NCBI GenBank assembly: GCA_043228905.1
Contig: JBHGNT010000004.1
Coordinates: 19,406,001-19,470,000 of the forward strand
Length of the DNA stretch: 64,000 nucleotides
Reading direction: 5' to 3'
DNA from: Azolla caroliniana
Lineage: Eukaryota > Plantae > Polypodiophyta
Both the position numbers and the translations under genes were made by a program. The notes under the pieces are model-generated. The model was not told the DNA's origin. It saw only the letters and a list, made by a program, of their open reading frames with translations, and ran no database searches. Of the stretch, positions 3,873 through 64,000 are shown one piece after another (within the stretch, counting starts at the first letter, position 1; the number at the start of each line of letters is the position of its first letter).

Positions 3873-4112
3873 TGTTGATCATATGATCGTTAGCAAGGAG
3901 TGCGAATGGTGTATCATTGGTGCACAACTTAGAGAGCATGAGAGCATGAGAGCATGAGAGAGAGAGAGAGAGAGATTAAACCTTGATAACTTAAATTTAT
4001 ATAGGGATTAAAACTAAAATACAACTAAAATATCTAAAAATATAATGAGAAAGGGAGAGACGGCTAGTCATTAAGTATTAATTAAAAAGACTAAAAAAAA
4101 GATACTAACATG

Positions 4113-4165
<53 letters not shown>

Positions 4166-4697
4166 AGAGCAAAGCTATTACTAATTATCATTAAGATTGA
4201 AAAAGAAATTACATAGGGATATGGTCATGAGCAAACTAGTTTCACCCACTACGGGGATCATCAATGCTAAAATGACCATTAGGGGTGGATAGGTTTATAT
4301 AAGGAGTTTTAGGAGAGGGTTTAGAGAAATGATAATAGGGAGTGGGGGTATGCTTATGGATATGATTTGAAAAAGGGGAAGATTTGGAGAAGAAGGAAAA
4401 GGATATTATGAGCTTTAATGTGACAAGGGGGAGGTTTTGGTATAAGGAAAAAGAGGTTATAATGTTAAGGAGGGATAAGAAAAAAAGAGAGAGTTAGGAT
4501 ATGAAATGTAAAAAGAGGGGAAATATTAAAAGAGGAGTTAAGATTGAGGGGGAAATAAGGAAAATATGTGAGATAATGAGAAGGGAAGGGGAGAGAGAGA
4601 GAGAGAGAGAGATAAGGGGAGTGAGTAGATCTATGAGGATCAAGGGTGGGAAAACGAGAGAAAACGAGTCAAGTTAAAATATATGGAAATCGATGAG
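3873..4697 (-). mobile_element. GA-rich non-coding element, diverged copy 1 (carries a degenerate hammerhead)
   Basis: Starts TGTTGA...CAAGGAGTGCGAATGG like 55778 and 58965; shares the 4221-4600 block with them; (GA)n tracts; right boundary approximate. Confidence 0.75.
4221..4279 (-). ncRNA. Degenerate type I hammerhead ribozyme
   Basis: Minus strand ATGGTCATTTTAGCA-TTGATGA-TCCCCGTAGTGGGT-GAAACTAGTT-TGCTCATGACCAT; core C3 changed to U and stem II closing pair lost. Confidence 0.6.
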
Positions 4698-5802
4698 AGG
4701 GGTAGCCATTCGGCGAAGGTCGAGATGATAGCTGCAAGCTCCTTGTCGTAGATTGGATAATTGGTTTTCGGGGCTGTAAACTTCCGAGAGTAGAAGGCGA
4801 CTATATGTAGGGTGCCATCGTCATCGGGCTGAGACAAGACCGCACCTATGGCAAAGTTGGAGGCGTCAATTTCAACCTACAAAGGGTTGGTGGGGTCGGG
4901 GTGGACTAACACGGGGGCGGAGAGAAAAGCTACTTTAAGGCCATTAAAAGCATTGTGTGCCATGCGAGTCCAATGAAATGGAGTATCTTTCCAGGTAAGT
5001 TGGATGAGAGGTTGGACTAGGAAGGGAACCCATCTATAAATGGTCTATAAACATTTGCAAAACCAAAAAACGATTGTACCATTTTCAACCGAGTCAGGAG
5101 TGGCCAATCAATGATTGCCGCTACCTTGTGTTCATCTATTGTGATCCCAGTAGATGAGATCATGTAACCCAACAATTCGATAGAGGTTTGATTGAATTCA
5201 CATTTCTCAGTTTTGGCGATGAGTCCATTTCTCACTTTGTTGAGACCCCAATAATCCACACATAAGCGTAAGGAGCCGCCCTTCTTTTTTCAGAAATAAG
5301 ATTGGTGTCCTGGCCAGTGATTTGGAGGGTTGAATGAAGCCCTTCACGAGATTCTTAGCCACATCTGTGCGGAGAGCCTCATGTTCTGGTTCAGATAACC
5401 CATAGATAGGACTGAATGGGGGATGCTCGCCAGCTTGGAGTTCGATTGGGCAATCGTAGGGGCGTTAAGTCGGTAACCGATCGATATTGCGCTTTTCGAA
5501 GATGTCGAAAAAGTCGCTATATCGGACGGATAAATTGTTGACAGGAACAATGACATCCCCCCACTCAACGGCTAGTGTAGTGACCAAACCGAACTCGACC
5601 GCAACGGAATCAAGAGAGTGTCGTGAGCTAGCAAGAATTGGCCTTACTAGAAAAGTGATTGAGCGGTTACACCAATCCACCATCGGATTGTGTGTCTCCA
5701 ACCACGATAGCCCCAACACAATCGGATGTCGGGGGGTTGTGATGAGGTAGAACATGAGTTCCTCTTGATGCGGCCCGACTTGAAGTACCAATGGGATAGT
5801 GG
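4698..5802 (-). pseudogene. pol: Family C-like chromovirus protease-RT-RNase H fragment with internal RT deletion
   Basis: PIVLGLSWLETHNP; DYWGLNKV joined directly to GLIAKTEKCEF; NYPIYDKELAA. Confidence 0.85.
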
Positions 5803-13249: not shown

Positions 13250-13321
13250 TGTGGTTGCTGGGATTCGACCCTAGGTCTCCACGGCCACAACAGGGATTTC
13301 TTACCACTAAACTACAACAAC
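13250..13321 (-). pseudogene. Degenerate tRNA-His copy
   Basis: Anticodon and acceptor stem mismatches. Confidence 0.78.
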
Positions 13322-14167
13322 CGAGTTTGGTTTGCCAAATTGAAACAAAGTCTTCACAATCGCAACATGCAGTTGGAACCACTAAGTATTGACTTTCCAT
13401 GTTGCATGCATAAATTCATACCTACACTCTATATAACATATTAGGCATGTCTCCATAAAGGCGTCCATAAATGTGGAATTCTAATCACTAAGACTTGACT
13501 TTCTATGTGGCGTGAATAAATTTATGTACACAATTTATATGACATATTAGGCAAGTCTCGCTAAACCCATGGACAAATTCATGTGCACATTCTATATGAA
13601 ATAGGAGCCAAGATTGCACTCGTGACAATATTGTTCAAAGTGGAAAATGAAAACCAATGACATGCCAACTTCATACCCTCCCGAATTCAAAATCTATCAG
13701 TTTTCACACGTGAATGTACACTGAATTTCGGGGTCTTTCGTGGGATGTATGCGCAAGTCTTGACTACGACGACCTCGAAATTTAACCACTAAGTCGATTT
13801 TTTTGCCGAAATTAATTATTATGGTTATTTGCATTTGCAAACAATAATCCATCTACACATTCGATACGTAATATGCGTCAAGCCGGTCCGATAACATTGT
13901 CTAATGTTACGCTCATTGTTTGTCGAGCTTATGTCTCCATGACCGTAACACTCAATTCTAACCACTAAAGTAAAACCAAAAAATTCTTTTAAACCCTAAA
14001 CAATCTGAGTTGGGGTAAACATTTGATAGGAACTTTTGTTGGGGATGGTTGGTCGTATCTGTTTGCTCAAATTAAATTGTTAGCCTCCTCGGTATATGCA
14101 ACCAACTGCCTATCTTAAATCGATTGGGATTTGAAGCATCCTTATAAGTTGATATACTCAGTTTTTG

Positions 14168-14239
14168 TGTGGTTGCTAGGATTCGAGGCCAAGTCTCCAC
14201 GGCCACAACGTGGAATTCGAAGCACTAAATTACAACGAC
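14168..14239 (-). pseudogene. Degenerate tRNA-His copy
   Basis: T-stem and acceptor mismatches. Confidence 0.78.
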
Positions 14240-15031
14240 CGAGTTTGTGTTGCCAAATTGCAACTAACTCTTCACAACCGCAACATGGTGTTGTAACCAC
14301 TAAGTATTGACTTGCCATGTTGCATACCTAAATTCATGGCTACATTCTATATAAGATATTAGGCCAGTTTCCATAAAGGCGTCGATAAATGTGGAATTCT
14401 AATAACCTAGACTTCAATTCTTATGTGGCTTGAATAAATAGATGTACAAAATATATATGACATATGAGGCAAGTTTCGATAAAGCCATGGACCAAATCAT
14501 GTACACATTCTATATGAAATAGGAGCCAACATTGCACTTGTGTCAATATTGTGCAATTCGGAAAATGGAAACCAATGATATGCCAACTTCATACCTTGTC
14601 GAATTTAAAATCTAACGGTTTTCACACGTGAATGTACACTAAAATTTAACATCTGAGTTGATTTTTTTGCTCAAATTAATTATTATGGTTATTTGCGTTT
14701 GCAAACAATAATGCATGTACACATACGATACATTAATATGCATCAAGCCTTCCGATAACATTGTATAATGTCAAGCTCATTGTTTGTCGAGCTTAGGTCT
14801 CCAAGACCATAACGTGGACATCTAACCACTAAATTAAAACCACAAAATTCTATTAAACCCTAAATAGTCTTTGTTGGGACAAGCATTTGATGGGAACCTT
14901 TGTTGGGGATGGTTGGTCGTATCTTTTTGTTCAAATTAAATTGGTAGGGTCCTCGGTATTTGCAACCAACTGCCTATGTCAAATCCATTGGAATTCAAAG
15001 TATCCTTACAAGAGTATATACTTAGTTTTGG

Positions 15032-15103
15032 TGTGGTTGCTAGGATTCGAGCCCAGGTCTCCACGGCCACATTGTGGAATTCTAAGCAGTAAACTATAAC
15101 CAC
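15032..15103 (-). pseudogene. Degenerate tRNA-His copy
   Basis: Multiple substitutions. Confidence 0.78.
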
Positions 15104-15446
15104 CGAGTTTGTGTTGCCATATTAGAGCTGACACTTCACAACCGCAACATGGAATTGTAGCCACTAAGTACTAACCTCGCCTATTGCATGCATAAATTTA
15201 TAGCTACAGTGTACATAAATATTAGGCAAGTCTCCTTAAAGGCATCCATATATATGGAATGTTAGCCAGCCTGCAAGGAGTGGAGGACAGTCTAGAATGT
15301 GAATCTGAAGGTGTTATTAGAAAAATTAGTAATTAAGTATATTTTTAGAAGTGAAAGGACTGACCTGAATCGGTATGCCGATCCAGATCTGGACCGGTGC
15401 ATATCAGTGTGCCGGTTGGCACCGTTTTGTATTCAGAGCCAGTGAT

Positions 15447-44500: not shown

Positions 44501-44514
44501 AGCAAAGGAAGAAG
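38588..44514 (+). mobile_element. Non-chromovirus Gypsy B2 (relative of B1), 3'-truncated
   Basis: LTR 38588-38966 (TGTTG...CAACA); PBS-like TAGCGACCAC at 38973-38982 (tRNA-Arg-like). Confidence 0.9.
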
Positions 44515-44517
44515 TGA
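39019..44517 (+). pseudogene. gag-pol: B2 single-frame gag-pol with one nonsense codon (TGG>TAG at 42250-42252) and truncated integrase
   Basis: ORFs 38935-42252 and 42265-44517 share a frame; three CCHC knuckles, IIDGGS, FLDDF, RNase H, integrase. Confidence 0.93.
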
Positions 44518-47342: not shown

Positions 47343-47596
47343 AAGGCCCGGTTACATTGTAAATCAGGATGGATAATTAATAAAGCCCCATTGTCTTATC
47401 TCTGTGTATTGATTACCGTTCTATGCTAATTACTTTCTATCTTATGCGTGTATTAAGATTCAATATATATTGCTTAAGTCTTCGATAAAGGTCTGATTAA
47501 TCATCGGTCTAACTCTATCTCACCGTAGCACCCTTTGGTGAAGTGTCTTCTGTAGACACGCTGTGTTAGGCTATTGTCCGACGCTTAGGAGTAACA
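47343..47596 (+). repeat. B1 3' LTR, U3 and PPT deleted
   Basis: Matches 21489-21742; ends GAGTAACA. Confidence 0.9.
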
Positions 47597-48556
47597 TGGA
47601 TTTCTAACCACTAAGACTTGACTTCCTATGTGGCATGAATAAATTCATGTCCACAATCTATATGACATATGAGGTCACACTACATAAAGCCATGGACAAA
47701 TTCATGTGCACATTCTTCATGAAATAGGAGCCAAGATTCCATTTGTTTCAATATTGTGGAATGTGGAAAATGAAAACCAATGGCATGCCAACTTCATACC
47801 CTACCAAATTCAAAATGTAACAGTTTTCACACGTAAATGTACACTAAATTTCGGAGTTATTAATGGGATGAACACGGAAGTCTCGACTGCGACGACCTCG
47901 AAATTAATTATTATGGTTATTTACATTGTGGCGTGAATAAATATATGTACACAATCTATATGATAGTTGAGGCAAGTCTCACTAAAGCCATGGATAAATT
48001 CATGTTCACATTCTATATTGTGTAATGAGAAAAATGAAAACCAATGATATGCCAACTTCATACCCTACCGAATTCAAAATCTAACAGTTTTCACACGTGA
48101 ATGTGCACTGAATTTCGGGGTCGCTAAATGGATGTACGCACAAGTCTCGACTGGGATGATCTCGAAATTTAACCATTGAGTCGATTTTTTTGCTGAAATT
48201 AACTATTATGGTTATTTGCTTTTGCAAAAAATAATCCATGTACAAATTCGATACGTAATATGTGTCAAGGCCCTCCGCTACCATTATATAATGTCAAGCT
48301 CATTGTTTGTCAAGCTTAGGTTTCCATGACCATAACGTGGACTTCTAAGCACTAAAATACAACCAGACACTAGTCTTAAATTGAAAAAAATCGTGGCTGG
48401 GATGAACATTTGATAGGAACTTTTATTGGGGACAAGTGGTTGTAGTTTTTTGCTCAAATTAAATTGTTACGCTCCTCGGTATTTCCAACCAACTGCCTAT
48501 CTCAAATCTATTGGGATTGCAAGCATCTTTATAACTTGATATAGACTCAATTTTGG

Positions 48557-48628
48557 TGTGGTTGCTGGTATTCGAGCCCAAGTCTCAACGGTCGCAACGT
48601 GGAATTCTAACTACTAAATTACAACGAC
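48557..48628 (-). pseudogene. Degenerate tRNA-His copy
   Basis: Multiple substitutions including the anticodon. Confidence 0.78.
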
Positions 48629-49403
48629 CGAGTTTCCATGTTGCATGCATAAATTCATAGCTACGCTATATAACATATTAGGCAAGTTTCCATAAAGGCA
48701 TCATAAGTCTGGAACTCTAATAAGTAAGACTTGATTTCCTATACGGCATGAACAAATTCATGTACACAATCTATATGACATATGAGGCAACTTTGCATAA
48801 AGCCAGGGACAAATTCATGTGCACATTCTATATGAAATAGGAGCCAACATTGGACTGATGACAATATTCTGCAATGTGGAAAATGAAAACTAATGATATG
48901 CCAATTTCATACGACTGCTGAATTTAAAATCTAACAGCTTTCTTACGTGAATGTACACTGAATTTTGGGGTCGTTAATGGGATGTACGCGGAAGTTTGGA
49001 CAACAACGACCTCGAAATTTAACCACGGTGTCGATTTTTTTGCTCAAATTAATTATTCTTGTTATTTACATTTGGAAACAATAATCCATGAACACATTTG
49101 ATACGTAATATGCGTTAAGGCCCTCCACTAGCATTCTATAATGTCAAGCTCATTGTTTGTCGAGCTTAGGTCTCCATCACCATAACGTGGACTTCTAACC
49201 ACTAATCTACAACCACAAAATGCTTTTAAACCCTAAACAATGTTGGTTGGGGTGAACATTTGGTAAGAACCTTTGTTGGGGATGATTGGTCGTATCTTTT
49301 TGCTCAAATTAAATTGTTACACTCGGTATTTCCAACCAACTTCATATCTCAAATCCATTGGGATTCAAAGCATATTTACAAGTTGATATAGACTCAGTTT
49401 TGG

Positions 49404-49475
49404 TGTGGTTGCTGGGATTCGAGCCCAGGTCTCCACGGCCACAACGTGGAATTCTAACCACTAAACTACAACCAC
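49404..49475 (-). tRNA. trnH-GUG: tRNA-His(GUG), intact consensus copy
   Basis: Identical to 10591-10662, with G-1 and CCA. Confidence 0.92.
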
Positions 49476-49852
49476 CGAGTTTGTGTTACCAAATTGGAAC
49501 TAACTCACCATTAAGTAATGACTTCCCATGTTGCATGCATAAATTCATGGCTACATTCTATATAACATATTAGGCAAGTTTACATAAAGGTGTCCATAAC
49601 TGTGGAATTCTAATCACTAAGACTTGCCTTCCTATGTGGCGTGAATATATTGATGTACACAATCTATATGACATATGACGCAAGTCTCGATAAAGCCATG
49701 AACATTTGATAGAAACTTTTGTTGGGGACGGGTGGTTGTAGTTTTTTGCTGAAATTAAATTATTATGCTTCTCAATATTTGCAACCAACTTCCTATCTCA
49801 AATCCATTGGGATTCGAAGCATCTTTACAAGTTGATATAGACTCAGTTTTGG

Positions 49853-49924
49853 TGTGGTTGCTTGGATTCGAGCCCAGGTCTCCACGGCCACAACGTGGAA
49901 TTCTAGCCACTAAACTACAACTAC
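49853..49924 (-). pseudogene. tRNA-His copy with ~3 substitutions
   Basis: T-stem and acceptor mismatches. Confidence 0.72.
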
Positions 49925-50040
49925 CGAGTTTGTGTTGCCAAATTGGAACTAACTCTTCACAACCGCATCATGGAGTTGTAACCACGAAGTATTGACTTTC
50001 CATGTTGCATGCAGAAATGCATAGCTACACTCTATAGAAC

Positions 50041-53000
50041 ATCTTCACATCTTCACGTCTAACTACTCTGCCTCGAGGTCTATGCTTGCCGTTATGCTCA
50101 ATACCGTCCGGATGGAAGTCATCTTTACTACCGGGGCAAATATCTTGTCGAAGTCTACGCCCTTCTTCTACTGGAACCTTTTCACCACGATCGTGGCTTT
50201 GTATCTTGGGGGGTTCCCAACATCTCTCGATTTTAGCTTGTACACCCACTTGTTTCGGAGTGTCCTCTTTCCTTTTGGGAACTCCACCAATTCATACGTG
50301 TGGTTCTAATGCATGGAATCCATCTCGTCCTGCTTGACACTCGACCACTTGCGGTTGTGGGTGTCTCTCTTAGTTTCTTCGAACCTTTCCGGCTCCCCCT
50401 GATCGGTTAGCAGTACATCCTCTGGATCCAGAAACCATTGTCTCTCTGAGAGGATATCTGCGTCTTTGGTTTTCGGCAACTGGCTCCTCTGTTTGTTCTT
50501 CATCCGAATCTGATTCAGGTTCTTGGCTAGTTCTGGTTCCTACTTCCTCTCCTTCTCCTGCCGGTTCGGTGTCCTCTCCGTAAACGGCCGGTTCTTCGAG
50601 TGTTAACCGGCTCTTTGTCGGTTGGGTTTGCATCTCATCGAACCGATCGTTACCGGTCAACTCGGAGTTCATTATCTTCTTCTCCGACACCTAGTCGGGA
50701 AGGGTCTTGTTCTCCATGAAGATAATATTTCAACTCCGGAACACCTTCTTGTCGACGGGGTCCCACACTCGGTAACCGAACTCATCATCGCCGTATTCGA
50801 GGAGTATGCAAGGCCCAGACTTTGGATCCAAAATTTCTCTCTGGTCCTTTGCCACATGCACGTTAGTGAGACACTCGAACACCTTTAGATGCCGGTAAGA
50901 CACTTCCTTACCAGTCAATAGTCTCTGTGGCGTGTCTCCGTCCAAGGGTACTGAGGGTGATCTTTTTATCACGTACGTTGTTTTCGTAAGCGCATCAACC
51001 CAAAACATCTTGGGTAACTTGGCATGTGCTAGCATACTCCGGACCATCTCCATTATGGTCTGGTTCATCCTCTCGGCCAACCGGTTTAGTTCCGACGTTG
51101 TCGTGCCTTACGGCTCCGGATCGTTGCGTGAGTCGGGTGGGAACCGCTGGGGTTATGGACTAGGAGGAAAGAAAATTCTAAGGAAATTAAGAGTATGAAA
51201 TATATTGTCAGAAAGAAAGATATGAAAAACTCGTGAATCCCACGAGTATAGTGTATTAGTGAGTAATCAAATTAAGAGAGAAAATAGTTAGCAAATTCGT
51301 GAATCCCACGATTATATTATATTAATCAACCCTTGTAAAATAATCAACAACCTCTATACATCTTTCTCTCTTCCTTATATAGTGTTGGAAGAGTCTAAGT
51401 TTATCACATGCAAGCATCATGCTTTTCCTATCTTTAGTTTTCATGCACACTGCATGTGCATGATTAGCTTTCTATCTCATCTTTTCTTTTAACTCTAGTG
51501 TCTATGCATGAATAACTTTTTGTACTATGCATGTCTAGAAATTTTACATGGGATAAAGTTTAGTATAACTTTAAAATTTATAATACGCTAGTATAATGAT
51601 AAGGCTTAACATTATTAACATGGAGGTACAAGGTTCAAATCTTGCCCTATGCATGTAATATATATATTTTTATACTTTCTTCTATTTACAAATATGTCTC
51701 TTCATCCGGTGAGAAACCTTCACCGGCCTTCTTCATCCGGCTCTTTCTGGTTCTGCTTCATTCGGTGCTTGCTAGTTTTCTTTGTCCGGTTCTTACCGTT
51801 ACCTCTTTACCGATCTCTTCATCCGTTTCTCACCGACTCTCACCGGCCTTCTTCATCCGGCTCTTGCTGGGTCTCCTTACCGGTTTTGGTCCTTACCGGT
51901 TCTCAACGGGTACTCCATGTCCTATCCGGAGAGACCAAAATGTAATTTTTCACGTAGTGTGCGAATTACACTACGACAACGTCTTCGACACGGTACATTC
52001 GAGCTGGATTCCCTTTGAGCGGCAGTACTCCTCGAACTGCCCCCGATATTGTCCTCTGTTATTTGCTCGAACCGCCTTCAGCTTCCGGCCTATTTCTCTT
52101 TCCACTCTTGCGTGGAGCTCCTTGAAGACGGATAACACCTGATCCTTCGTCTGCAACGGTGTGGCCCACAACTTCCGGCTATGGTCGTCTATGAACATCA
52201 CGAAGTATTGCGATCCAGCATGTGACTTCGTGTCCACTTGACACACATCGATATGCACCAGCTCTAGTGGTGCATTTTGTCTCATCGGTAGCCTTGAGCG
52301 AAGGGAGGTCCGATTTTGCTTACCAGCTAGGCAGTCTGTGCACTTCTCAAGATGCACGTCTTTCACCAGAATGAGGTTGTCATCGGCCAGCCTCTTCATC
52401 CCCTTCTCGCTCATGTGACACAGTCTCTTGTGCCACACCTCACCGGTAGTGTCACATGCGATGTTCACTTCTTCCCGGCATAACCGGGCATTCATTAGGT
52501 ACATAGCGTTCACTTTTTGGGCTCGAGCGACTATTAGGTTCCCTTTGCTAAACTTCATGACTCCGTTCCAGATGCTACTCGTGTAGCCTTCATTGTCTAG
52601 CTGACCGGCTGATATTAGGTTCAGTCGAACCTCTGGAACGTGTCGGACATCCTTCAGCAGTAGCTTGCATCCAGTTGGTGTTGTCAACCACATGTCTCCT
52701 ATGCCGACAATTCGGCATGTACCTTCATTCTCCATCCGGACACAACTGCGCTCACCGACTGTGTAGGATGAGAAGCATTTCCGGTCCCGGCTCAAGTGGA
52801 ACGACACTCCGGAATCGACAACCCACGTTGTCTTGTCGCCGACAAGGTACAACTCACTATCTTCAGTGATGAGCATCAACTCTTCTTCACTTGTTGCGAA
52901 TGACGTCGTTCCCTTCCGGTCTTTACCGTTCCGTTTCGGTGACCGCTTCGAATCGGTATTGTCGATTTCCTTGTCTTTCTGGAAATGCCGACAGTTCTTT

Positions 53001-54480
53001 TGGAAATGCCCCGGCTTGCCGCAATAGAAGCAAGTGGGCCTCCCCCTCGACTTGACTCTTTCTAGGGATAGTTGTTTTCCTTCCGGCCCGGCGTTGCCCA
53101 AAGTGACAACTAACATCTCCTAGCTATTCGGGAGGGAACCAAGCAGGAGTAATGCTAGTACCTCATCGGCGAGAGGTACTTCCAACGATGTTGCCTAGTG
53201 TATCAGCCCCTAGAAGGCATTCATGTGGTCCGCCATATTGGAGCCATCTTGGTATCAGAGTCTTACTAGCTTCCGGAATACCGAAACCCGATTAACAACA
53301 TTTTTGTTCTGAAACGTTAAATGCCGATCTTCCCTCAGAGCTCATGAACCTTGCTCTCTTCATTGAAGTTGTTGTACAGGCTCATGTCGATGAACCACCG
53401 TCTGTACGTCGTTGTCTTCATGTGCATCACCTCCCATATCATGGCATCGATGTTGTCCGGTCTCTTGTCCCCAAACTGAACTGGCAACCAAAGATCTTTA
53501 ACCACGAGCATGTCCCTCATCTTCGACTTCCACATTGAGTAGTTGGAGCCGGTGAGCTTGAACATGCCGCCAAATGAATCTTCCATTTTCTATGTCGTTT
53601 TGCTCTGATACCAGATTGTAGAGAATATGCGGAATAATGCTCGGCCATAACCGAGTCTTCAACTACAATTTCGTTGAGAATTACAATCACAAAAATGGGA
53701 ATGTAGATATAGATACACGTATACACAAATAATATGAGAGAGGGTACACAATATGTTTACGTGGAAAACCCTAAATGGGAAAAACCAGGTGAGTTCACAA
53801 AGTCCAACTATCACTATGCAAGGAGAATACAATAGAGGAACACAGAGGCAACAACCTCTTGCTCTCAATCTTTGCCTGACGGCAGTTACACCAGAGACAC
53901 ACTATGTATCGTGCTCTCTCTCTCTCTCTCTCTGTTACGCTCTGTACAGTAGTTACACCAATAATTCTAAAAAACATCATCATACCCTGTTTGCCCTAGG
54001 TCATACTTATACTAATATGACTTTTGGGCTATTTACAAATGTAGCCACAATGGGCTAACATAGACATATTTACATATATGTCCCTTCATCCGGTGAGAGG
54101 TTCTCACCAGGCCCACGTCATCCGGTTTTCACCGGGTCTTCATTGTCGGGTACTCCTCATCTGGTTCTCACCGGGTATTCCTTACCGGGTACTCATCATC
54201 CGGTTCTCACAGGGTCTTCCATTGCCGGGTACTCATATCCCATCCGGAGGGACCAAAATCCTAAAACTTAAAGTGATTGCCCTAAGTCATATTTATAGTA
54301 ATATGAACTTAGGGCTATTTACAACTATAGCGACAATGGGCTTACTCCAGACATATTTACAAATCTGTCTTCTCTTCCGGTTCTCACCGGGTCTCCTCTG
54401 ATTTCCAAATCTCTTCCAGTTCTCATCGGGTACTCTTTATTCATTACTGGATCCCATCCGGAGAGACCGATTTCCCAACA
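50041..54480 (-). mobile_element. 3'-truncated Ty1/Copia element
   Basis: LTR 53617-54480; PBS TGGTATCAGAGC (tRNA-iMet) at 53602-53613; gag KLTGSNYSMW, CFYCGKPGHFQKNC, WVVDSG, WHKRLCH, integrase, RT start (FAPVVK) cut at ~50041. Confidence 0.93.
51099..51978 (-). mobile_element. Solo LTR (family F) in the Copia integrase
   Basis: TGTCGT...ACGACA termini; 4-bp TSD ACGT whose removal restores TVSKTSELNRLAERMN in frame. Confidence 0.88.
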
Positions 54481-54802
54481 TCAATGTACACATTCGATAC
54501 GTAATATGCGTCAAGGCCCTTTGATTAGAATGTATAATGTCAAGTTCATTGTTTCTCAAGCATAGGTCTACATAACCAGAACGTGGACTTCTAACCACTA
54601 AAGTACAACCACAAAATGGTCTTAAATTGAAAACAATCTTGGTTGCGACGAACATTTGATAGGAACCTTTGTTGGGGATGGTTGGTCATAGTTCTTTGCA
54701 TAAATTAAACTGTCATGCTCCTCGGTATTTGCAACCACCTTCCTATCTCAAATCCATCGGGATTCGAAGCACCTTTACAGGTTGATATAAACTTAGTTTT
54801 GG

Positions 54803-54874
54803 TGTGGTTGTTGGGATTTGAGCCCAGGTCTCCACGGCCACAACGTGGAATTCTAACCACTAAACTACAACCAC
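54803..54874 (-). pseudogene. tRNA-His copy with T-arm substitutions
   Basis: Two changes in the T arm. Confidence 0.72.
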
Positions 54875-55581
54875 CGAGTTTGTGTTGCTAAATTGGAACT
54901 ATCTATTCACAACCGCAACATGGAGCTGTAACCACTAAGTACTGACTTTCCATGTTGCATGCATAAATTCATAGCTACACTCTATATAACATATTAGGCA
55001 AGTCTCTTAAAGGCATCCAGAAATATGGAGTTCTAATCACTAAGAGTTCACTTCCTATGTGGCAAGAATAAATTAATGTGTAGAATCTATATGACATATG
55101 AGGCAAGTTTTGATAAAGCCATGGACAAATTCATGTGCACATTCTATATGAAATAGGAGCCAAGATTGCACTATTGACAATATTGTGCAATGTGGAAAAT
55201 GAAAACCAATCTCGAATTTTAACCACGAAGTCAAATTTTTTGCTCAAATGAATTATTATGGTTTTTATTTGCAAACATAAATCAATGCGTCAAGGCCCTC
55301 CGATAACAATGTCTAATGTCAAGCTCATTGTTTTTCAAGCTTAGGTCTACATGACCAGAAAGTGGACTTCTAACCACTAAAGTACAACCAAAAAATGGTC
55401 TTAAATTGAAAACAATCTTGGTTGGGACGAACATTTGATAGGAACCATTGTTGTGGATGGTTGGTCGTAGTTCTTTGCTCAAATTAAAGTGTTATGCTCC
55501 TCGGTATTTGTAACCAACTTCCTATCTCAAAACCATCGGGATTCGAAGCACCTTTATAGGTTGATATAAACTTAGTTTTGG

Positions 55582-55653
55582 TGTGGTTGCTGGGATTCGA
55601 GCCCAGGTCTCCACGGACACAACGTGGAATTCTAACCACTAAACTACAACCAC
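55582..55653 (-). tRNA. trnH-GUG: tRNA-His(GUG), one substitution (G37>T)
   Basis: All stems intact. Confidence 0.75.
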
Positions 55654-55777
55654 CGAGTTTGTGTTGCCAAATTGGAACTAACTCTTTACACCCGCAACAT
55701 GGAGTTGTTACCACTATGTACCGACTTTCAATATTTCATGCATAAATTCATAGATATACTCTATATAACATATTCGG

Positions 55778-56694
55778 TGTTGACTATACGGTCATGACAA
55801 GGAGTGCGAAATGGTCGATCATCGGTGGGGAGAGGCCTAGATGTGAGAGAGGTTTCGGGTTTCGGGGTTTCGGGTTTAGGAATTAGGGTTTAGGGATTTA
55901 AGGATTAAAGAGTAGGTTTTAGGGGTTTAGGGTTTTAGGGATTAGGGCTGTTGACCATATGGTCATGACATGGAGTGCGGAATGGTAGATCGTCAATGGG
56001 TAGAGGAAAGAGAAAACAGGGTTCACGATTAAGCATAAGAGGGGATGAAGTGTAAATAACCACCAAGAACAATTTGAGCGCACCCAAATCGTTTAACACT
56101 CTTGGTGTAAGTGAAGCATAATGAGAGATAGAGGAAGGGGAGAGAGATGAGGGATTAATCACTAACATTAAAACTAGAAATAAGTTAAAACATAACCATT
56201 ATTAAGCTAAATAGTCTAGATGAGAGAGAGGGAGAGATTAAGAAGGAGACTAATTTTTATTAAGAAAAAGGAAAAATTACAATACCATGGGTAATGGTCA
56301 TGAGCAAACTAGTTTCGCCCCCTACGGGCCTCATCAGTGCTAAAATGACCATTCGGGGTGGATAGGTTTACATAAGGAGTTTTCGGAAATGCTTTAGAGA
56401 AATGGCAATGGGGAGTGGGGGTGTGCTTATGGATGTGATTGAAAGGGGGAAGATTTGGAGAAGAAGGAAAAGGATTTTATGGGCTTCGATGTGATAAGGG
56501 GAAGGTTTTGGTATTAGGAAAATGAGGTTATATTGTTAAAGGAGGGATAAGAAGAAAAGGGAGAGTTTAGGATATAAAATGTAAAAAGAGAGGAAATATA
56601 AGGCGCATTAAGAAAGAGGGGGAAACAAGGATTATGTGAGATGATGAGAAGGGAAGGAGAGAGAGAGAGAGAGAGAGATAGAAAGGAAAAACGC
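55778..56694 (-). mobile_element. Hammerhead-carrying GA-rich element, copy 2
   Basis: Near-identical to 58965-59875; telomere-like GGGTTTAG/GGGTTTC tract at 55850-55945; terminal 40-bp motif repeated at 55949. Confidence 0.85.
56293..56353 (-). ncRNA. Type I hammerhead ribozyme motif
   Basis: AAUGGUCAU UUU AGCA CUGAUGA G GCCC GUAGG GGGC GAAAC UA GUU / UGCU C AUGACCAUU: complete core, stems I and II, palindromic ACUAGU stem III. Confidence 0.85.
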
Positions 56695-56804
56695 TTTTTG
56701 CTGAAATTAAATTCTTATGCTTCTCGATATTTGCTACCAACTTTCTATCTCAAATCCATCGGGATTCGAAGTATCTTTACATGTTGATATAGACTCACTT
56801 TTTG

Positions 56805-56876
56805 TGTGGTTGCTGGGATTCGAGCCCAAGTCTCCACGGCCACAACGTGGAATTCTAACCACTAAACTACAACCAC
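56805..56876 (-). tRNA. trnH-GUG: tRNA-His(GUG), one substitution (U-G wobble in the T stem)
   Basis: Cloverleaf intact. Confidence 0.78.
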
Positions 56877-57019
56877 CGAGTTTGTGTTGCCAAATTGGAA
56901 ATAAGTCTTCACAACCGCACTAGGGAGTTGTAACCACTAAGTACTGAATTCCTATGCATAAATTCATAGCTACACTCTATATAATATATTAGGCCAGTTT
57001 CCATAAAGGCATCCATAAA

Positions 57020-57534
57020 TATACTAATATAACTTTCGGGATATTTACAAATGTAGCCACAATGGGCTAACATAGACATATCTACATATATGTCCCTTCA
57101 TTCGGTGAGAGGTTTTCGCCGGGCCTGCGTCTTCCAGTTCTCACCGAGTCTTCTTTGTGGGGTACTCCTCATCCGGTTCTCACCGGGTCTTCCTTGCCAT
57201 GTACTCATCATTCGGTTCTCAGAGGGTCTTCCATTGCTGGGTACTCATATCCCATTCGGAGGGACCAAAATTCTAAAACTTAAAGTGATTGCCCTATGTC
57301 ATATTTATAGTAATATGAACTTAGGGCTATTTACAACTATAGCATTAATGGGCTTACTCAAGACATATTTACAAATCTGTCTTCTCTTCCGGTTCTCACC
57401 GGGTCCACCGATCCGGTTTCCAGATCAATTCCGGTTCTCACCGAGTTTCCTTTGGTTTTCGGATCACTTCTAGTTCTCACTGGGTACTCTTTATTCATCA
57501 CCGGATCCCATCCGGAGTGACCGATTTCCCAACA
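57020..57534 (-). repeat. Partial duplicate of the Copia LTR
   Basis: Matches 54008-54480 including the same TTTCCCAACA|TCAAT junction. Confidence 0.9.
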
Positions 57535-57904
57535 TCAATCTACACATTCAATACGTAATATGCATCAAGGCCCTCTGAATAATTCATGTACACATTCGAT
57601 ACGTAATAGGCGTCAAGGCACTCCACTAACATTGTATAATGTCAAGGTCATTGTTTCTCGAGCTTACGTTTCCATCACCATAACGTGGACTTCTAACCAC
57701 TAAAGTACAACCACAAAATGGTCTTAAATTGAAAACAATCTTGGTTGGGACGAACATTTGATAGGAACCTTTGTTGGGGATGGTTGGTCGTAGTTCTTTG
57801 CTCAAATTAAAGTGTTATGCTCCTCGGTATTTGCAACCAACTTCCTATCTCAAATCCATCTGGATTCGAAGCACCTTTACAGGTTGATATAAACTTAGTT
57901 TTGG

Positions 57905-57976
57905 TGTGGTTGTTGGGATTCGAGCCCAGGTCTCCACGGCCACAACGTGGAATTTTAACCATTAAACTACAACCAC
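57905..57976 (-). pseudogene. tRNA-His copy with ~3 substitutions
   Basis: T-stem and D-arm changes. Confidence 0.72.
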
Positions 57977-58964
57977 ACAGTTTGTGTTGCTAAACTGGAA
58001 CTAACTCTTCAAAACCGCAACATGGAGCTGTAACCACTAAGTACTGACTTTCCATGTTGCATGCATAAATTCATAGCTAAGCTCTATATAACATATTAGG
58101 CAAGTCTCCTAAAGGCATCCAGAAATATGGAGTTCTAATGACTACGAGTTCACTTCCTATGTGGCGTGAATAAATTAATGTGAAGAATCTATATGACATA
58201 TGAGGCAAGTTTTGATAAAGCCATGGAGCTGTAACCACTAAGTACTGACTTTCCATGTTGCATGCATAAATTCATAGCTAAGCTCTATATAACATATTAG
58301 GCAAGTCTCCTAAAGGCATCCAGAAATATGGAGTTCTAATCACTAAGAGTTCACTTCCTATGTGGCGTGAATAAATTAATGTGAAGAATCTATATGACAT
58401 ATGAGGCAAGTTTTGATAAAGCCATGGACAAATTCATGTGCACATTCTATATGAAATAGGAGCCAAGATTGCACTCTTGACAATATTGTGCAATGTGGAA
58501 AATGAAAACCAATCTCTAATTTTAACCACTAAGTCAAATTTTTTGCTCAAATGAATTATTATGGTTTTTATTTGCAAACATAAATCAATGTACACATTCG
58601 ATACGTAATATATGTCAACGCCCTCCGATAAGAATGTATAATGTCAAGCTTATTGTTATTCAAGCTTAGGTCTACATGACCAGAACGTGGACTTCTAACC
58701 ACTAAAGTACAACCACAAAATTCTCTTAAATTGAAAACAATCTTGGTTGGGAAGAACATTTGACAAAAACCTTTGTTGGGGATTCGAGCCCAGGTCTCCA
58801 CGGCCACAACGTGGAATTCTAACCACTAAACTACAACCACCGAGTTTGTGTTGCCAAATTGGAACTAACTCGTCACACCCGCAACATGGAGTTGTTACCA
58901 CTATGTACAGACTTTCCATATTTCATGCATAAATTCATAGATATACTCTATATAACATATTCGG

Positions 58965-59875
58965 TGTTGACTATACGGTCATGACAAGGAGTGCGAAATG
59001 GTTGATCATCGGTGGGGAGAGGCCTAGATGCGAGAGAGGTTTCGGGTTTCGGGGTTTCGGGTTTAGGAATTAGGGTTTAGGGATTTAAGGATTAAAGAGT
59101 AGGATTTAGGTGTTTAGGGTTTTAGGGATTAGGGTTGTAGACCATATGGTCGTCACAATGAGTGCGGAATGGTAGATCGTCAATGGGTAGAGGAAAGAGA
59201 AAACAGGGTTCACGATTAAGCATAAGAGGAGATGAAGTGTAAATAACCACCAAGAACAATTTGAGCGCACCCAAATCGTTTAACACACTTGGTGTAAGTG
59301 AAGCATAATGAGAGATAGAGGAAGGGGAGAGAGACGAGGGATTAATCACTAACATTAAAACTAGAAATAAGTTAAAACATAACCATTATTAAGCTAAATA
59401 GTCTAGATGAGAGAGAGGGAGAGATTAAGAAGGAGACTAATTTTTATTAAGAAAAAGGAAAAGTTACAATACCATGGGTAATGGTCATGAGCAAACTAGT
59501 TTCGCCCCCTACGGGCCTCATCAGTGCTAAAATGACCATTCGGGGTGGATAGGTTTACATAAGGAGTTTTCGGAAAGGCTTTAGAGAAATGGCAATGGGG
59601 AGTGGGGGTGTGCTTATGGATGTGATTGAAAGGGGGAAGATTTGGAGAAGAAGGAAAAGGATTTTATGGGCTTTGATGTGATAAGGGGAAGGTTTTGGTA
59701 TTAGGAAAATGAGGTTATATTGTAAAAGGAGGGATAAGAAGAAAAGGGAGAGTTTAGGATATAAAATGTAAAAAGAGAGGAAATATAAGGCGCATTAAGA
59801 AAGAGGGGGAAACAAGGATTATGTGAGATGATGAGAAGGGAAGGAGAGAGAGAGAGAGAGGGAAACGAAAAACGC
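58965..59875 (-). mobile_element. Hammerhead-carrying GA-rich element, copy 3
   Basis: Near-identical to copy 2, same left junction TATTCGG|TGTTGAC; right end uncertain. Confidence 0.85.
59480..59540 (-). ncRNA. Type I hammerhead ribozyme motif
   Basis: Identical to 56293-56353. Confidence 0.85.
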
Positions 59876-60078
59876 GATGACGTTTCAAGAATAGTGTTGA
59901 ATCATGTTTCTGATTTAACTTTGTCCTCAAAACTCCGTTTTTTATGATTTTTGGCTTGTTTTGAAGCTGATTCAGAGGTCTTTCGAATGACTATTAAGTT
60001 GTTACGTTTGGCTTTCATTACAAGAACCTACAAAAAAAGTGTCATCGTCTCAAATTAGTTCTCTCAATCTCTATTAGG

Positions 60079-61053
60079 ATGGCTGACACAACAACAGGAA
60101 GTGAGTTGATAATTGTTGATGGATGTGGTAGTGATGATGGTTATGAAAATTACAAGAGGCAAAAGTTTATTGATGCTACAAAACATGAGAAAACATCATA
60201 TGCTGTTATTCTTGGTGGGAAAGATGTTATTGGAGATGATTATGATATGGATAGTCGTTGTGATTTTGTTAAGGCTTTGCTTTTTGATTTTATGGAAAAA
60301 AATAAGAAAGATGCTAAAGATTGTGTGGAGGAGGATGTTGTCGAGGTGGTGATGGAGACCAACTCTATGTTAGGAACTTTTGACAAGTTCTATGATCGTG
60401 GTGTTATTTTGTATTTCACTAGCAAACTTCCTTTGGTATCATGGATTAAGCAGTGGTTGAATTCATTCATAATGCCTAATTGTGTTGAGGATGTGTATGT
60501 GGCTCCAAGAGGTTTCTATGATGTAGTTTTTCAATCGTCAGAACACCGTACAACTTTGATGACAAAGATACCAATCTTCTTTTATAGAATATTAGTGCAT
60601 GTGATGGAATGGGTTCTAGTGGTGGATTATAAAGATTTATTAAAGCAACAATGTCCAATTTGGGTGACTGTTGATTGTGGTAACTCATTCTTTTGGGATT
60701 TACTACTAGGATTGATGTCCCAAATTGGTAAAGTTTTGGTTTCTCCTCATGTTAATTCGTTGAACAAATGTAGATTTTGCATGTTATGGGATACAAGTTG
60801 TAAACTTCCAGGATGGTTGAGTGTCGATACATCTCGATTTGGTCGATTTCGTTTTAAGCTTCAATGGGAAAATTTTGAAGGACACTGTTTTAAATGTGGT
60901 AAATTGGGGCATTTTATGGCTGAATGCCAATATCATGGTGAACTATGCCTAGAAAATAATGTCAAAGGGAAAAATAAAGAAGATGTTGAGAACGATATTG
61001 TCTCAATGGTTGATATGGTCATGGATGAGGGAACATCTCATGGGTTAGAGTGA
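60079..61053 (+). CDS. L1-type LINE ORF1 (DUF4283-like region plus CCHC knuckle); may be cut by a premature stop
   Basis: RGFYDVVF, PIWV, IGKVL, CFKCGKLGHFMAEC. Confidence 0.8.
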   Translation: MADTTTGSELIIVDGCGSDDGYENYKRQKFIDATKHEKTSYAVILGGKDVIGDDYDMDSRCDFVKALLFDFMEKNKKDAKDCVEEDVVEVVMETNSMLGTFDKFYDRGVILYFTSKLPLVSWIKQWLNSFIMPNCVEDVYVAPRGFYDVVFQSSEHRTTLMTKIPIFFYRILVHVMEWVLVVDYKDLLKQQCPIWVTVDCGNSFFWDLLLGLMSQIGKVLVSPHVNSLNKCRFCMLWDTSCKLPGWLSVDTSRFGRFRFKLQWENFEGHCFKCGKLGHFMAECQYHGELCLENNVKGKNKEDVENDIVSMVDMVMDEGTSHGLE

Positions 61054-61504
61054 GATCCTAAAGTTCATGGTCATGTTAGAGGTGTTGGGAAGGAGAATGG
61101 AGTATGTAATAATGATGGCCCAAATGTTGAAGATGGAGAGTGGCATCAAGTGAAGCATAAGATAAAAGGGAAGGGTGTTGCCATACAAAGGGAATAAAAA
61201 AAACTTATGGTACGCCAATACCAAAAGATAATTTGAGGTTGAAGGAGGGGTTTAAGAAAAATCCTTGGTAGAAACAAGTGTGAAATTAGAGATTGTCCAA
61301 CCAATTATAATTTGATTCTTCAGGAAGGGTGGTACGACCTCAATTAAATCAAGGACTTCGTTCTCGTGGAGCTAGACAACAAAACCCTAATATTGGTGGA
61401 GGGCATGTAGTACACACAAATCCTTATGCAACTCTTGAACAACTAGTTAGTACATTCATGAATACACTTGCTCAAAAAGAGGAAATTCTTACCAAAGGTA
61501 TTAA

Positions 61505-63400
61505 ATGAAAGTGGTATCATGGAATGTGAGAGGGGCATCTTCTCCTCATAAGAAATATATATTATGGAAAACTTTATTTGATAAAGATTGGGATGTTTTA
61601 TGTGCAGTTCAACATAAGTGTCATGATTTAGCAGGATCTGTTTTACATTTGCGTGGATATTCCGCATATTATGAAGGACAGTTATCACATCATTACTCAG
61701 GGTTTGTCATAATCATTGGTGATTCGTTTTGTGCACATATAGTCTATAATGATCCATATGGACGTTTTTTGGTGATGGAAGTCAAGTATTTTGAGGATTT
61801 GATATGGTTGGTAGAAATCTATGCACCCAATAATGCTAATCAACGCATTGAGTTATGGTCTTCAATGTATCCACGGTTATCAGTGGGACGTGTTGGTTTG
61901 TTAATGGGTGATTTTAATGTGTGTTGATGCTTCACAATCTACTTCACGATTCTCATTGATGGATTCTCCTGAGCAAGAAGTTTGGGACAAACTGGCATCA
62001 AAGGTTTTGAAGTTGGATGTATGGAAATGGTTGCATCAAGATGAGGTTGGGTTTACATTTCAGTCTATGCAATACAAGGAAACATGGAGTAGGTTATATA
62101 GAATGTATGTTGTGCATGATGAGTCCTTTTTGCCAAAGATGCTTAATATGTCAATTATGCAAGAGGTTGTGACATCAGATCATTTTCCCATATGTTTTGA
62201 GTTTAATAAACATGGGGTAGATATGTACAAAACATTGCTTCAACGAGTCCCTTTGAGGTTCAATTCTTCTTTATTATTACATTCTTTATTTGATGCCTAT
62301 ATGCAACAAATTTTTGGCATGTTTTCAGAACAAGTTATTTCAAAAGGATGGCATGCATGGGATACAACACTACAGAACATCAATACATCATATGTATGGT
62401 ATGACTAATGCTAAAAGACATAAGAAATTGATTGATAAGTTTTCATATATTCTTACGCGGTGCAATGTACTATTGATGAATAATCCACATGATGAAGAGA
62501 TTTTGGATGTTCAAGTTCAAGTACAGGACATTGTGAAGAATTTGTCTTGGCAAAGTTATTAACAGGCAAGCCTACGTCAATTAAAGGAGGGATTTATAGA
62601 TAATCAATCACAAACTCATATGTTTTTTCAAGAATTAAGACCACCATATGCTCGTCCAAATGTGGTACGAATTAAGATAGGGGATGACATTGTTGTAGAC
62701 CTAGTCAGGGTTTTTGAGTTATGTATTACTCATTTTAAGAATTTGATTGGGCTAGAGTTGATTATTAATGAGGATGTCTTGAAAGCACGACAAAGAGTTT
62801 TATAATGTAATTGGGAGTGTCGTGAATACAAATATTTGTCAAGAATTGGATGTTGATTTTGAAGTAGTTGAGGTGGAAAAGGTATTGTTACACCTTCCAA
62901 ATGGTAAAAGCCCTAGCATTGGCAGATGATTCTTTTATGTTTTTTACAAGCCTCAAAAGAAAATCTTAAAAGGAGTATGCAAGTTTGGGATCAATTTGTT
63001 TTGGCTTCCGGGTTGTATATAAATTGGAGGAAGTCTCGCCTTATTTCTTGTACGGAGAGTGATTTGGAATGTTTGGGATGGCAAGGGTCAGTGATTACAC
63101 GAGGTTCAATTTATCGACATTTGGGTTATCCATTGGGCATTGATGTTACAAATGTTCCATTGATTGATTGGATTGGTGGTAAATTGAGGGACAAGTTTAT
63201 GTATTGGAAGTACTTATCAGACATTTGGCAAGTACTTATGAGACATTTGGCAAGTTTTAACCCGTTGTTGTTTGAGACCTCAACAATGGGTTTTTTCTCA
63301 ATAAATTCAAAATGGATCCAATGATGAGATGGAGATATTGTTCCAATTTTTACGTTATAGGGCCTACAACACAATTGGAATATGCGTAATGCTTTCATGT
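61505..63400 (+). pseudogene. L1-type LINE ORF2: APE endonuclease and internally deleted RT
   Basis: SWNVRG, IYAPN, MGDFN, SDHFP, GKSP fused to ADD, SGLYINWRKS, YRHLGYPLG. Confidence 0.88.
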
Positions 63401-64000
63401 TTGATAATAGACATGGGGTGAAAGCCTACATAACAAAATAGGTAAACCATGGGTGAGGGTAGAACATACAAAAAAGGGACATCAAGGTTGGGAAAAAAAT
63501 CAACTAAAAGGAAAAGTTAAGGTTTTAGGGTTTAGGTTAGCTCTAATAAAAATGTGGGAGAAAGGTATGAGTGAAAATAAGAAGTAGGGGAAAGTAGTGG
63601 AGTGTTAGGGTTGAAAATAGAAGAAAATAGGGTAGGCGTAGGGTTGAGAATAGGTGAAAGTATGGGAGGGGTAGGTCTAAAAGTATGAAAATTCTAACAA
63701 GAGTGAGTGCATATGCGGATGACAAACATAGCACCGTGATTGGGGATATAGTTTAGGGTTATAGATACAAAATGAAGAAAGCGCCAGTTATCGAATGTAG
63801 TCCCAGCCATATACAATAAAAGAGAGATAAGAATGGAAAATGCATCACTACGTAATATAGTCCCATGCTTACAACATAATGATGTGCAAAAGGTAAGGTA
63901 GGGTGTTGAGAGCTTGTTATGTGAGAGGATAAGAGAGACAAGCCGATGACACCATTGCAATGCCACGTAACGTTTTGTGGGCTCGATGGTTGACGATGCT

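What the first reader, a model, noticed from the sequence alone, without database searches (positions are those of the whole stretch)
55778..56694. Non-coding mobile element with a type I hammerhead ribozyme and telomere-like tract, found in the tRNA-His satellite
Seen: the minus strand of 56293-56353 (identical at 59480-59540, decayed at 4221-4279) has the full core CUGAUGA...GAAA. Stem II is GCCC/GGGC. Stem I is bipartite (4 bp, internal loop, 9 bp). Stem III is a minimal palindromic ACUAGU, with predicted GUU cleavage between 56307 and 56306. The ~0.9-kb element has no credible ORF, has (GA)n tracts, degenerate TTTAGGG repeats and a duplicated 40-bp terminal motif starting TGTTGA. Both independent insertions abut satellite sequence. 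Established: minimal type I hammerheads with palindromic stem III mark Penelope-like elements and non-LTR retrozymes and often cleave as dimers, whereas angiosperm LTR retrozymes use type III. Inference: a possibly undescribed retrozyme or Penelope-like terminal repeat. Its autonomous partner is not in this window.
Basis: partly seen in the sequence, partly recalled or inferred. Interest (0 to 1): 0.88.

Follow-up and report, generated by a model that had tools for sequence, protein, structure and literature searches.

The report
Non-coding hitchhiker of plant Penelope retroelements
This is a shortened, slightly damaged copy of a non-coding repeat that carries a conserved, likely self-cutting RNA motif and likely spreads by borrowing the copying enzyme of telomere-type Penelope-like jumping genes known from spikemoss, though most copies seen are joined to ordinary DNA rather than telomere repeats.

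Summary
The type I hammerhead is real and conserved. Relatives in 46 metagenome loci keep the core and show compensatory changes in stem II and distal stem I. The 0.9-kb stretch is the 5'-truncated end of a ~1.8-kb non-coding unit that occurs head to tail. It shares a TATA box, the hammerhead and a 3' end motif with 5-6 kb two-ORF elements. Their reverse transcriptase is Penelope-like, lacks GIY-YIG, and groups with Selaginella, Ginkgo and Cryptomeria proteins. The best reading is a non-autonomous derivative of plant endonuclease-deficient (Coprina Sm1/Sm2-like) PLEs. The window copies are likely impaired: one stem II base and one TATA base differ from the family. The copies at 55778 and 58965 are one duplicated insertion. 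Less ordinary features: a second paired hairpin found only in non-coding units, and 8 of 9 distinct 3' junctions that join non-telomeric DNA. Cleavage, expression and circles are untested, so 'retrozyme' is not shown. The scan reported the coding kind before on other pieces of this genome. Verdict: new variant of a known kind, interest 0.4.

The parts
55778..56694 (-). Copy 1: 5'-truncated 3' half of a ~1.8-kb non-coding PLE-derived unit
   Evidence: 84% to positions 910-1826 of the 1826-nt tandem unit of L032; 96% to L010, which shares the 3' junction and runs further 5'
56367..56374 (-). TATA-box position; reads TATGTAAA here, TATATAAA in close relatives (promoter role inferred)
   Evidence: TATA-like word at a fixed distance before the hammerhead in 26 of 27 distinct sequences; only copies 1/2 lack it; contigs carry the family base at 56371
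56293..56353 (-). Type I hammerhead with palindromic stem III; predicted cut 56307/56306; variant stem II base at 56329
56055..56111 (-). Second conserved two-helix hairpin, seen only in non-coding units
   Evidence: 98.7% of cells paired in 16 distinct sequences, 2 pairs with a change on both sides; present in 26 of 31 non-coding loci, absent from 14 of 15 coding loci
55949..56004 (-). Internal copy of the conserved end motif, followed by the telomere-like tract
   Evidence: profile hit; the same layout in L010, L017, L021, L024, L045
55851..55947 (-). Degenerate reverse-complement telomere repeats (CCCTAAA on the element's sense strand)
55778..55833 (-). Terminal end motif; 3' end of the insertion (likely start site of reverse transcription)
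   Evidence: shared by coding and non-coding units; lies ~50 nt before the ORF1 start in coding units; arrays end within about 9 nt of it
58965..59875 (-). Copy 2: duplicate of copy 1 with the same 3' junction; hammerhead at 59480-59540
59876..63430 (+). Broken L1-like LINE (ORF1 with DUF4283 and zinc knuckle, APE endonuclease, RT pieces) lying head to head with copy 2, likely inserted into the unit
   Evidence: Pfam; tblastn with the intact LINE of L042
63432..64000 (-). 5' part of the same ~1.8-kb unit type, running off the window
   Evidence: 87% to unit positions 103-539, 86% to 646-681
3873..4706 (-). Copy 3: older subfamily with an inactive-looking hammerhead at 4221-4279 (C3U, G10.1U, C11.1U)
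   Evidence: 83.6% to copy 1; 90.7% to L014
54480..58964 (.). tRNA-His satellite units that flank copy 1 and precede copy 2 (host DNA, target of the insertion)
   Evidence: 10 empty and 2 filled satellite sites listed

Best explanation
The stretch is a 5'-truncated, likely impaired copy of a ~1.8-kb non-coding tandem unit that shares its TATA box, type I hammerhead and 3' end motif with two-ORF, endonuclease-deficient Penelope-like elements, and that was likely copied and inserted by their reverse transcriptase. Shown by sequence: the shared terminal-repeat modules, a relic of the ORF1 start at the head of each non-coding unit, head-to-tail arrays, 3' ends that fall within about 9 nt of the end motif in coding and non-coding families alike, ragged 5' ends, and no target-site duplication. 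Inferred: an upstream unit is transcribed from the TATA box and reads through the next repeat. The hammerhead would cut as a dimer, because its stem III is palindromic, and so only in part. The PLE RT would bind at the end motif and start cDNA just behind it, on a free 3'-OH. That 3'-OH would be a telomere overhang in some cases (L003) and, more often here, a break or nick in other DNA such as the tRNA-His satellite. Copies keep sequence upstream of the cut site, so the template must have been uncut read-through RNA or a re-ligated circle; I favour read-through. The insertion was then duplicated in the satellite, and a LINE landed in it.
For: 46 loci with 47 related hammerheads. Stem II pair 10.3-11.3 is U-A in 14 and C-G in 13 of 27 sequences, with 99.2% of cells paired and 0 of 500 shuffles as high. 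Distal stem I is GGUC/GACC in 14 and swapped to GACC/GGUC in 7 of 23 arm pairs; all 23 form 6 bp or more. 15 of 46 loci hold ORF1 or RT on the hammerhead strand. ORF2 is 658-685 aa with DKN and YIDD and no GIY-YIG word; such a word was found in 8 of the other 45 tree rows. ORF2 is 39-40% identical to Selaginella, Cryptomeria and Ginkgo proteins and forms one clade with them (SH-like 100). It matches the 'Selagine1' rows that stand beside CoprinaP1 in the supplement of PMC8557442. The end motif gave 61 profile hits, all on the hammerhead strand. L003 joins 9 perfect CCCTAAA repeats right after it. The ORF1-start relic follows it in non-coding units. No TSD at the three window copies. Internal RT initiation with a short 'tail', and a hammerhead not needed for insertion, were shown in vitro for another PLE (PMC11167929).
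Against: No coding element is a close DNA relative of the window family along its length; the link rests on short shared modules. No activity was tested. 8 of 9 distinct 3' junctions lack telomere repeats, which departs from the telomere-restricted model. The loci are short-read contigs from a run of neighbouring assembly ids: they are not independent samples and may be chimeric at repeats. The search pattern fixed the core, proximal stem I and stem III, so their conservation is no evidence. The tree is FastTree only and holds no named Coprina, Athena or Chlamys reference.
Confidence: 0.82

Rival explanations
1. The unit is a large non-LTR retrozyme: hammerhead cuts release a unit-length RNA that is ligated into a circle, and the PLE RT copies round the circle to give tandem arrays. 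This differs from the best reading only in the template.
For: One hammerhead per tandem unit; copies keep DNA on both sides of the cut site; PLEs are proposed as mobilisers of non-LTR retrozymes and a circular intermediate is proposed for PLEs (PMC7761336; PMC4209133); a second hairpin is specific to non-coding units.
Against: Units of 1.7-2.4 kb are about ten times the size of non-LTR retrozymes; they keep PLE parts (end motif, ORF1-start relic); insertions start at the end motif, not at the cut site; read-through RNA explains the same arrays.
Confidence: 0.2
2. The copies were added only at chromosome ends, in mixed head-to-tail chains, and were later moved inward by rearrangement or by further additions; there is no insertion at internal sites.
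For: All four PLE segments in the window have the same orientation; mixed arrays of different families occur (L014; L012 and L041); L003 joins telomere repeats; EN-minus PLEs are described as generally terminal (PMC8557442).
Against: 8 of 9 distinct 3' junctions join satellite, LTR-element or other DNA with no telomere repeat at the joint; window copies have foreign DNA on both sides, among LTR elements.
Confidence: 0.3
3. The stretch is only the long terminal repeat of an autonomous family that was not assembled, not a separate non-autonomous unit.
For: 5'-truncated PLE copies are common; a second RT family exists in the same data (L014).
Against: Complete non-coding tandem units run from end motif to end motif without ORF1 or RT similarity in L032, L021, L045, L037 and L007; coding units have short terminal repeats and lack the second hairpin.
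Confidence: 0.1
4. It is a Helitron-, MITE- or LTR-type repeat with a chance hammerhead look-alike.
For: Rfam score below threshold; end hairpin and microsatellites also occur in such repeats (recalled).
Against: 0 of 200 shuffles gave such a motif; compensatory changes in two stems; the same modules sit on PLE RT elements.
Confidence: 0.02

Closest known systems
Telomere-associated EN-deficient PLEs of Selaginella moellendorffii (Coprina Sm1/Sm2), with canonical type I hammerheads (PMC4209133; named in PMC13159263); EN(-) PLEs are also listed for Pinus and Picea (PMC9033089, table passage)
   Same: RT without GIY-YIG, 39% identical to a Selaginella protein and in one clade with it; type I hammerhead in the terminal repeat; reverse-complement telomere repeats near the 3' end; one junction on telomere repeats.
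   Different: The window element is non-coding; most 3' junctions seen are not on telomere repeats; the partners have a long Pro/Asn-rich ORF1 overlapping ORF2 in the -1 frame; non-coding units carry an extra hairpin. The original Sm1/Sm2 paper was not available for a direct comparison.
Non-autonomous Chlamys PLE derivatives such as MRC1 of Chlamydomonas (PMC8557442, passages)
   Same: Non-coding, head-to-tail, share 3' ends with autonomous PLE families.
   Different: Their partners are the N-terminal-endonuclease Chlamys clade, mostly without canonical hammerheads; here the partners have no endonuclease.
Metazoan non-LTR retrozymes (PMC7761336, passages)
   Same: Non-coding tandem repeats, one type I hammerhead per unit with weak palindromic helix III, PLEs as likely mobilisers.
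   Different: ~150-300 bp units with abundant circles, against 1.7-2.4 kb units that keep PLE terminal parts; circles untested here.
PLE-X (EN-minus Chlamys) of Selaginella and Chara (PMC8557442, passages and supplement rows)
   Same: Plant EN-minus PLEs with canonical hammerheads that insert internally.
   Different: PLE-X target 28S rDNA or microsatellites and have CxC motifs; the RT here matches the 'Selagine1' rows instead, and its targets vary.

Membership tests
Type I hammerhead ribozyme | Core C3-A9, G12-A14, A15.1-U16.1 and NUH triplet in type I order | tested here: met
   Copies 1/2; GUU triplet; copy 3 has C3U and fails
Type I hammerhead ribozyme | Stem II begins directly after A9 with continuous pairs | tested here: not met
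   For window copies 1/2: G.G at the second pair, or an extra G after A9 (predicted probability 0.90). Met by 26 of 27 sequences at that pair. An extra G there had 'major detrimental effects' in the CChMVd hammerhead (PMC3705267, passage)
Type I hammerhead ribozyme | Stems kept by compensatory change | tested here: met
   Stem II pair U-A 14 / C-G 13; distal stem I swapped in 7 of 23
Type I hammerhead ribozyme | Self-cleavage as monomer or dimer | not testable with these tools
   needs an in vitro assay
EN-deficient PLE (Coprina, Selaginella type) | PLE-type RT (DKN, core, thumb) in the autonomous partner | tested here: met
   not encoded in the window itself
EN-deficient PLE (Coprina, Selaginella type) | No GIY-YIG endonuclease in the unit | tested here: met
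   none in 3 ORF2s (Pfam), 6 ORF2s (motif) or 3 whole ORF1s; the L025 unit of 4978 nt holds these two long ORFs on the sense strand
EN-deficient PLE (Coprina, Selaginella type) | RT falls in the Coprina clade among named references | tested here: inconclusive
   clade with a Selaginella protein and motif match to 'Selagine1', but no named Coprina, Athena or Neptune sequences in my tree
EN-deficient PLE (Coprina, Selaginella type) | Partial-tandem arrays giving pseudo-LTRs with a hammerhead; 5' truncation; short 3' tail | tested here: met
EN-deficient PLE (Coprina, Selaginella type) | Attachment to telomere repeats at chromosome ends | tested here: inconclusive
   1 of 9 distinct 3' junctions is on telomere repeats (L003); the window copies are not; chromosome position unknown because no genome is held
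Non-LTR retrozyme | Short (~150-300 bp) tandem units | tested here: not met
   non-coding units of 1684-2395 nt
Non-LTR retrozyme | Abundant circular RNA joined at the cut site | not testable with these tools
   only contigs were available
Plant LTR retrozyme | Type III hammerheads in two LTRs, with PBS, PPT and TSD | tested here: not met
   type I topology, one per unit, no TSD; PBS and PPT were not searched

The most novel reading that the evidence does not exclude
Several families of plant non-coding RNA parasites have evolved from telomeric, endonuclease-free Penelope elements. They gained their own hairpin signal, replicate through a hammerhead-made 1.7-2.4 kb circle, and spread inside chromosomes by starting reverse transcription at breaks or at nicks made by an L1-like LINE endonuclease. 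LINEs of one clade sit head to head with these repeats in two separate cases.
Probability: 0.12. Interest if true: 0.75.

Novelty: new variant of a known kind. Interest (0 to 1): 0.4.

Why it matters
How Penelope-like elements without an endonuclease choose a start point and a target, and what their hammerheads do, are open questions. This set reduces the element to four short RNA or DNA modules: TATA box, hammerhead, end motif, and a hairpin found only in non-coding units. It also offers intact 660-aa RTs to test them with. If most insertions really use non-telomeric 3' ends, 'telomere-restricted' would be too narrow for this plant clade, and it would link PLE terminal repeats to retrozyme-like parasites. 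The window copy itself is an ordinary decayed repeat, so bench work should use the intact relatives (L010, L032, L025).

Tried and rejected
No whole genome is held, so copy number, chromosome position and empty sites genome-wide could not be checked. The run search found no RNA holder listed; this says nothing on expression. Four runs with guessed or unknown type were laid: three gave short or partial contigs, some over hammerheads of related families, and one gave none. All are contigs, so start, end, strand and circularity cannot be read. Rfam gave nothing for the second hairpin or the end motif. No solved structure matched ORF2 by sequence, and Pfam gave nothing convincing for ORF1. My first hammerhead scan allowed one base after A9, so it counted the slipped register; the shuffle control applies to that looser pattern. 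One search used a structure shifted by one column; one search is the valid count. The TATA count used too narrow a slice (37 of 45; the 8 misses show the word by eye), so I rely. The idea that 'GAAAACG' is a true right terminus was rejected: L010, L014 and copy 3 run on past it. The idea that the ~300-bp satellite repeat around copy 1 is a TSD was rejected: it is 85.9% identical, no better than other units. L042 and L033 were first counted as two LINE-PLE junctions but are one. A homologue search with the LINE ORF1 named no host, so 'fern' rests only on earlier unchecked notes. Gladyshev and Arkhipova 2007 and Lin et al. 2016 are not held and were seen only as citations.

Full report
Observation. 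The minus strand of 56293-56353 holds a type I hammerhead, identical at 59480-59540 and decayed at 4221-4279. It folds with z = -3.5. Rfam has no gathering hit and only a weak HH9 match (E 1.7). The predicted cut follows GUU at 56307/56306, and the longest ATG ORF in the element is 77 aa. The period-7 tract and the 84.5% duplicated motif are present. The surroundings are tRNA-His satellite, LTR-element pieces and a broken L1-like LINE. No genome is held.

Relatives and covariation. One pattern scan of metagenome contigs gave 47 matches in 46 loci. They come from a run of neighbouring assembly ids, so they are not independent samples. The pattern fixed the core, proximal stem I and stem III. 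In the free parts, 27 distinct hammerheads (25 from loci, 2 from the window) pair in 99.2% of cells, and 0 of 500 shuffles reach that. Pair 10.3-11.3 is U-A in 14 and C-G in 13 (related sequences inflate such counts). Distal stem I is GGUC/GACC in 14 and GACC/GGUC in 7 of 23 arm pairs, and all 23 form at least 6 bp. A TATA-like word lies at a fixed distance upstream in 26 of 27.

The window copies are variants. In the standard register their second stem II pair is G.G, where the other 26 sequences have C-G. The favoured fold slips by one base and leaves an extra G after A9 (probability 0.90, against 0.00 for L010). An extra G at that place had major detrimental effects in a viroid hammerhead (PMC3705267, passage). 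An extra base there is, however, common in metazoan minimal PLE hammerheads (PMC4209133, parts 1-2 of 4), so impairment is likely, not shown. Contigs of the 7 of 8 laid runs that cover 56329 carry the family base at essentially full depth, and the family base is also read at the TATA position 56371. Copy 3 has C3U and has lost the 10.1-11.1 pair.

Extent. The 0.9 kb is the 3' half of a unit of 1826 nt that lies head to tail in L032 and similarly in L001, L004, L012 and L019. Its 5' half matches 63432-63981 of the window, beyond the LINE. The LINE therefore likely interrupts copy 2, with a deletion at its 3' side (inferred). Copies 1 and 2 are 98.1% identical and share the satellite junction, as does L010 at 96%. 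Listed contigs of 3 of 4 DNA runs bridge that junction. It is one insertion, later duplicated. No TSD flanks any of the three copies.

Partners. 15 of 46 loci have ORF1 or RT similarity on the hammerhead strand; 31 have none. Coding units of about 5-6.4 kb carry a Pro/Asn-rich ORF1 and a 658-685 aa ORF2 that overlaps it in the -1 frame at an A-rich heptamer in 5 of 5 shown (frameshifting inferred, slippery-site pattern recalled). ORF2 has DKN and YIDD, a weak RVT_1 match and no GIY-YIG. Named homologues are from Cryptomeria (40%), Selaginella (39%) and Ginkgo (39%). They form one clade with ORF2 (SH-like 100), apart from the GIY-YIG-bearing rows (FastTree, 51 rows, no named clade references). 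ORF2 motifs match the 'Selagine1' rows next to CoprinaP1 in the supplement of PMC8557442 (search hits only). No such RT lies in the window. L014 holds the end of a second RT family with its own hammerhead, whose stem III is a different palindrome, followed by a window-type unit.

Shared end motif. A profile gave 61 hits in the loci and window, all on the hammerhead strand. In coding units it lies ~50 nt before the ORF1 start; in non-coding units a relic of that start follows it. Arrays end within about 9 nt of it. I count 9 distinct exits. L003 joins 9 perfect telomere repeats that run to the contig end. The other eight (copies 1/2 with L010, copy 3, L011, L025, L032, L037, L041, L045) join DNA without them. 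I left out L015 and L021 (contig ends), L030 (internal duplication), L005 (ambiguous flank) and the internal motif copies that precede the family's own telomere-like tract. At the satellite junction, the target matches the start of the next unit of the sister family at 5 of 6 bases; this is one weak case of microhomology. Short-read contigs can be chimeric at repeats.

Second hairpin. 56055-56111 (-) is a two-helix hairpin: 98.7% of cells pair in 16 distinct sequences, with 2 single compensatory changes and several G-U swaps. It is found in 26 of 31 non-coding loci. It is absent from 14 of 15 coding loci; the exception is the mixed array L014, where it lies in the non-coding unit. The sequence is nearly invariant, so covariation is weak. 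Its role is unknown; a signal that helps a non-coding RNA compete for the RT is my guess.

Mechanism. Shown: shared modules, tandem units, precise 3' ends, ragged 5' ends, no TSD, RT without endonuclease. Inferred: transcription from the TATA box with read-through, partial dimer cleavage, RT initiation at the end motif, and priming on telomere overhangs or on other free DNA ends. For an EN-plus PLE, internal initiation that leaves a short tail, and insertion without hammerhead cleavage, were shown in vitro (PMC11167929, parts 1-2 of 4). Copies keep DNA upstream of the cut site, so the template was uncut or circular RNA. A circle is the retrozyme rival (0.2). Terminal-only addition with later internalisation is a rival for location (0.3).

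Known versus new. EN-minus PLEs with telomere repeats and hammerheads (PMC8557442, passages), canonical type I hammerheads in Selaginella PLEs, conifer EN(-) PLEs (PMC9033089, passages), two-ORF Coprina (PMC13159263, passages) and non-autonomous Chlamys derivatives are published. Searches listed no title or abstract start on non-coding derivatives of plant EN-minus PLEs. The library lacks most subscription papers, Repbase could not be searched, and two key papers were not held, so this is weak evidence of novelty. Earlier notes of this scan describe the same kind on other pieces of this genome; I had recorded my reading before seeing them. The host is a land plant by inference from the telomere repeat and the RT clade; 'fern' comes only from those notes.

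Verdict. A real, conserved hammerhead in a decayed copy of a likely non-autonomous EN-minus PLE derivative. New variant of a known kind; interest 0.4.

Noticed in passing
window 59850-60082; L042:5940-6270 (same locus as L033): L1-like LINEs about 46% identical in protein sit head to head with a PLE terminal repeat, joined at the (CT)n tract upstream of the TATA box, in two separate cases. In L042 both the LINE (480 + 1278 aa) and the PLE ORFs are intact. This may be microsatellite targeting, a shared promoter, or chance.
   Followed up: partly
window 55474-55777 / 56697-56993 and 56694 / 59875: Copies 1 and 2 end at nearly the same 5' point yet have different 5' flanks (satellite versus LINE); unexplained.
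   Followed up: partly
L014:240-1400 (oriented on the hammerhead strand): A second EN-minus PLE family (RT about 53-57% to P0010-P0014) with its own TATA box and a hammerhead that has a different palindromic stem III and a GUA site, chained to a window-type unit.
   Followed up: partly
P0017, P0025, P0030: RTs of the same endonuclease-free clade occur in Cryptomeria japonica and Ginkgo; their genomic context was not examined.
   Followed up: no
ORF1 of L013, L028, L038, L046: Long Asn-Pro runs in ORF1, which appear to be encoded by C-strand telomere-like repeats, so the coding region itself carries telomere-complementary RNA.
   Followed up: no
window 6800-15260, 47590-50050, 54480-58960: A ~0.8-0.9 kb satellite with one tRNA-His(GUG) gene or pseudogene per unit: 18 Rfam tRNA hits, 12 ARAGORN genes.
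   Followed up: no
window 38929-44517: A near-intact LTR-type gag-pol region (1107 aa and 754 aa open frames separated by one stop codon) among many broken Ty3-type and one copia-type element.
   Followed up: no
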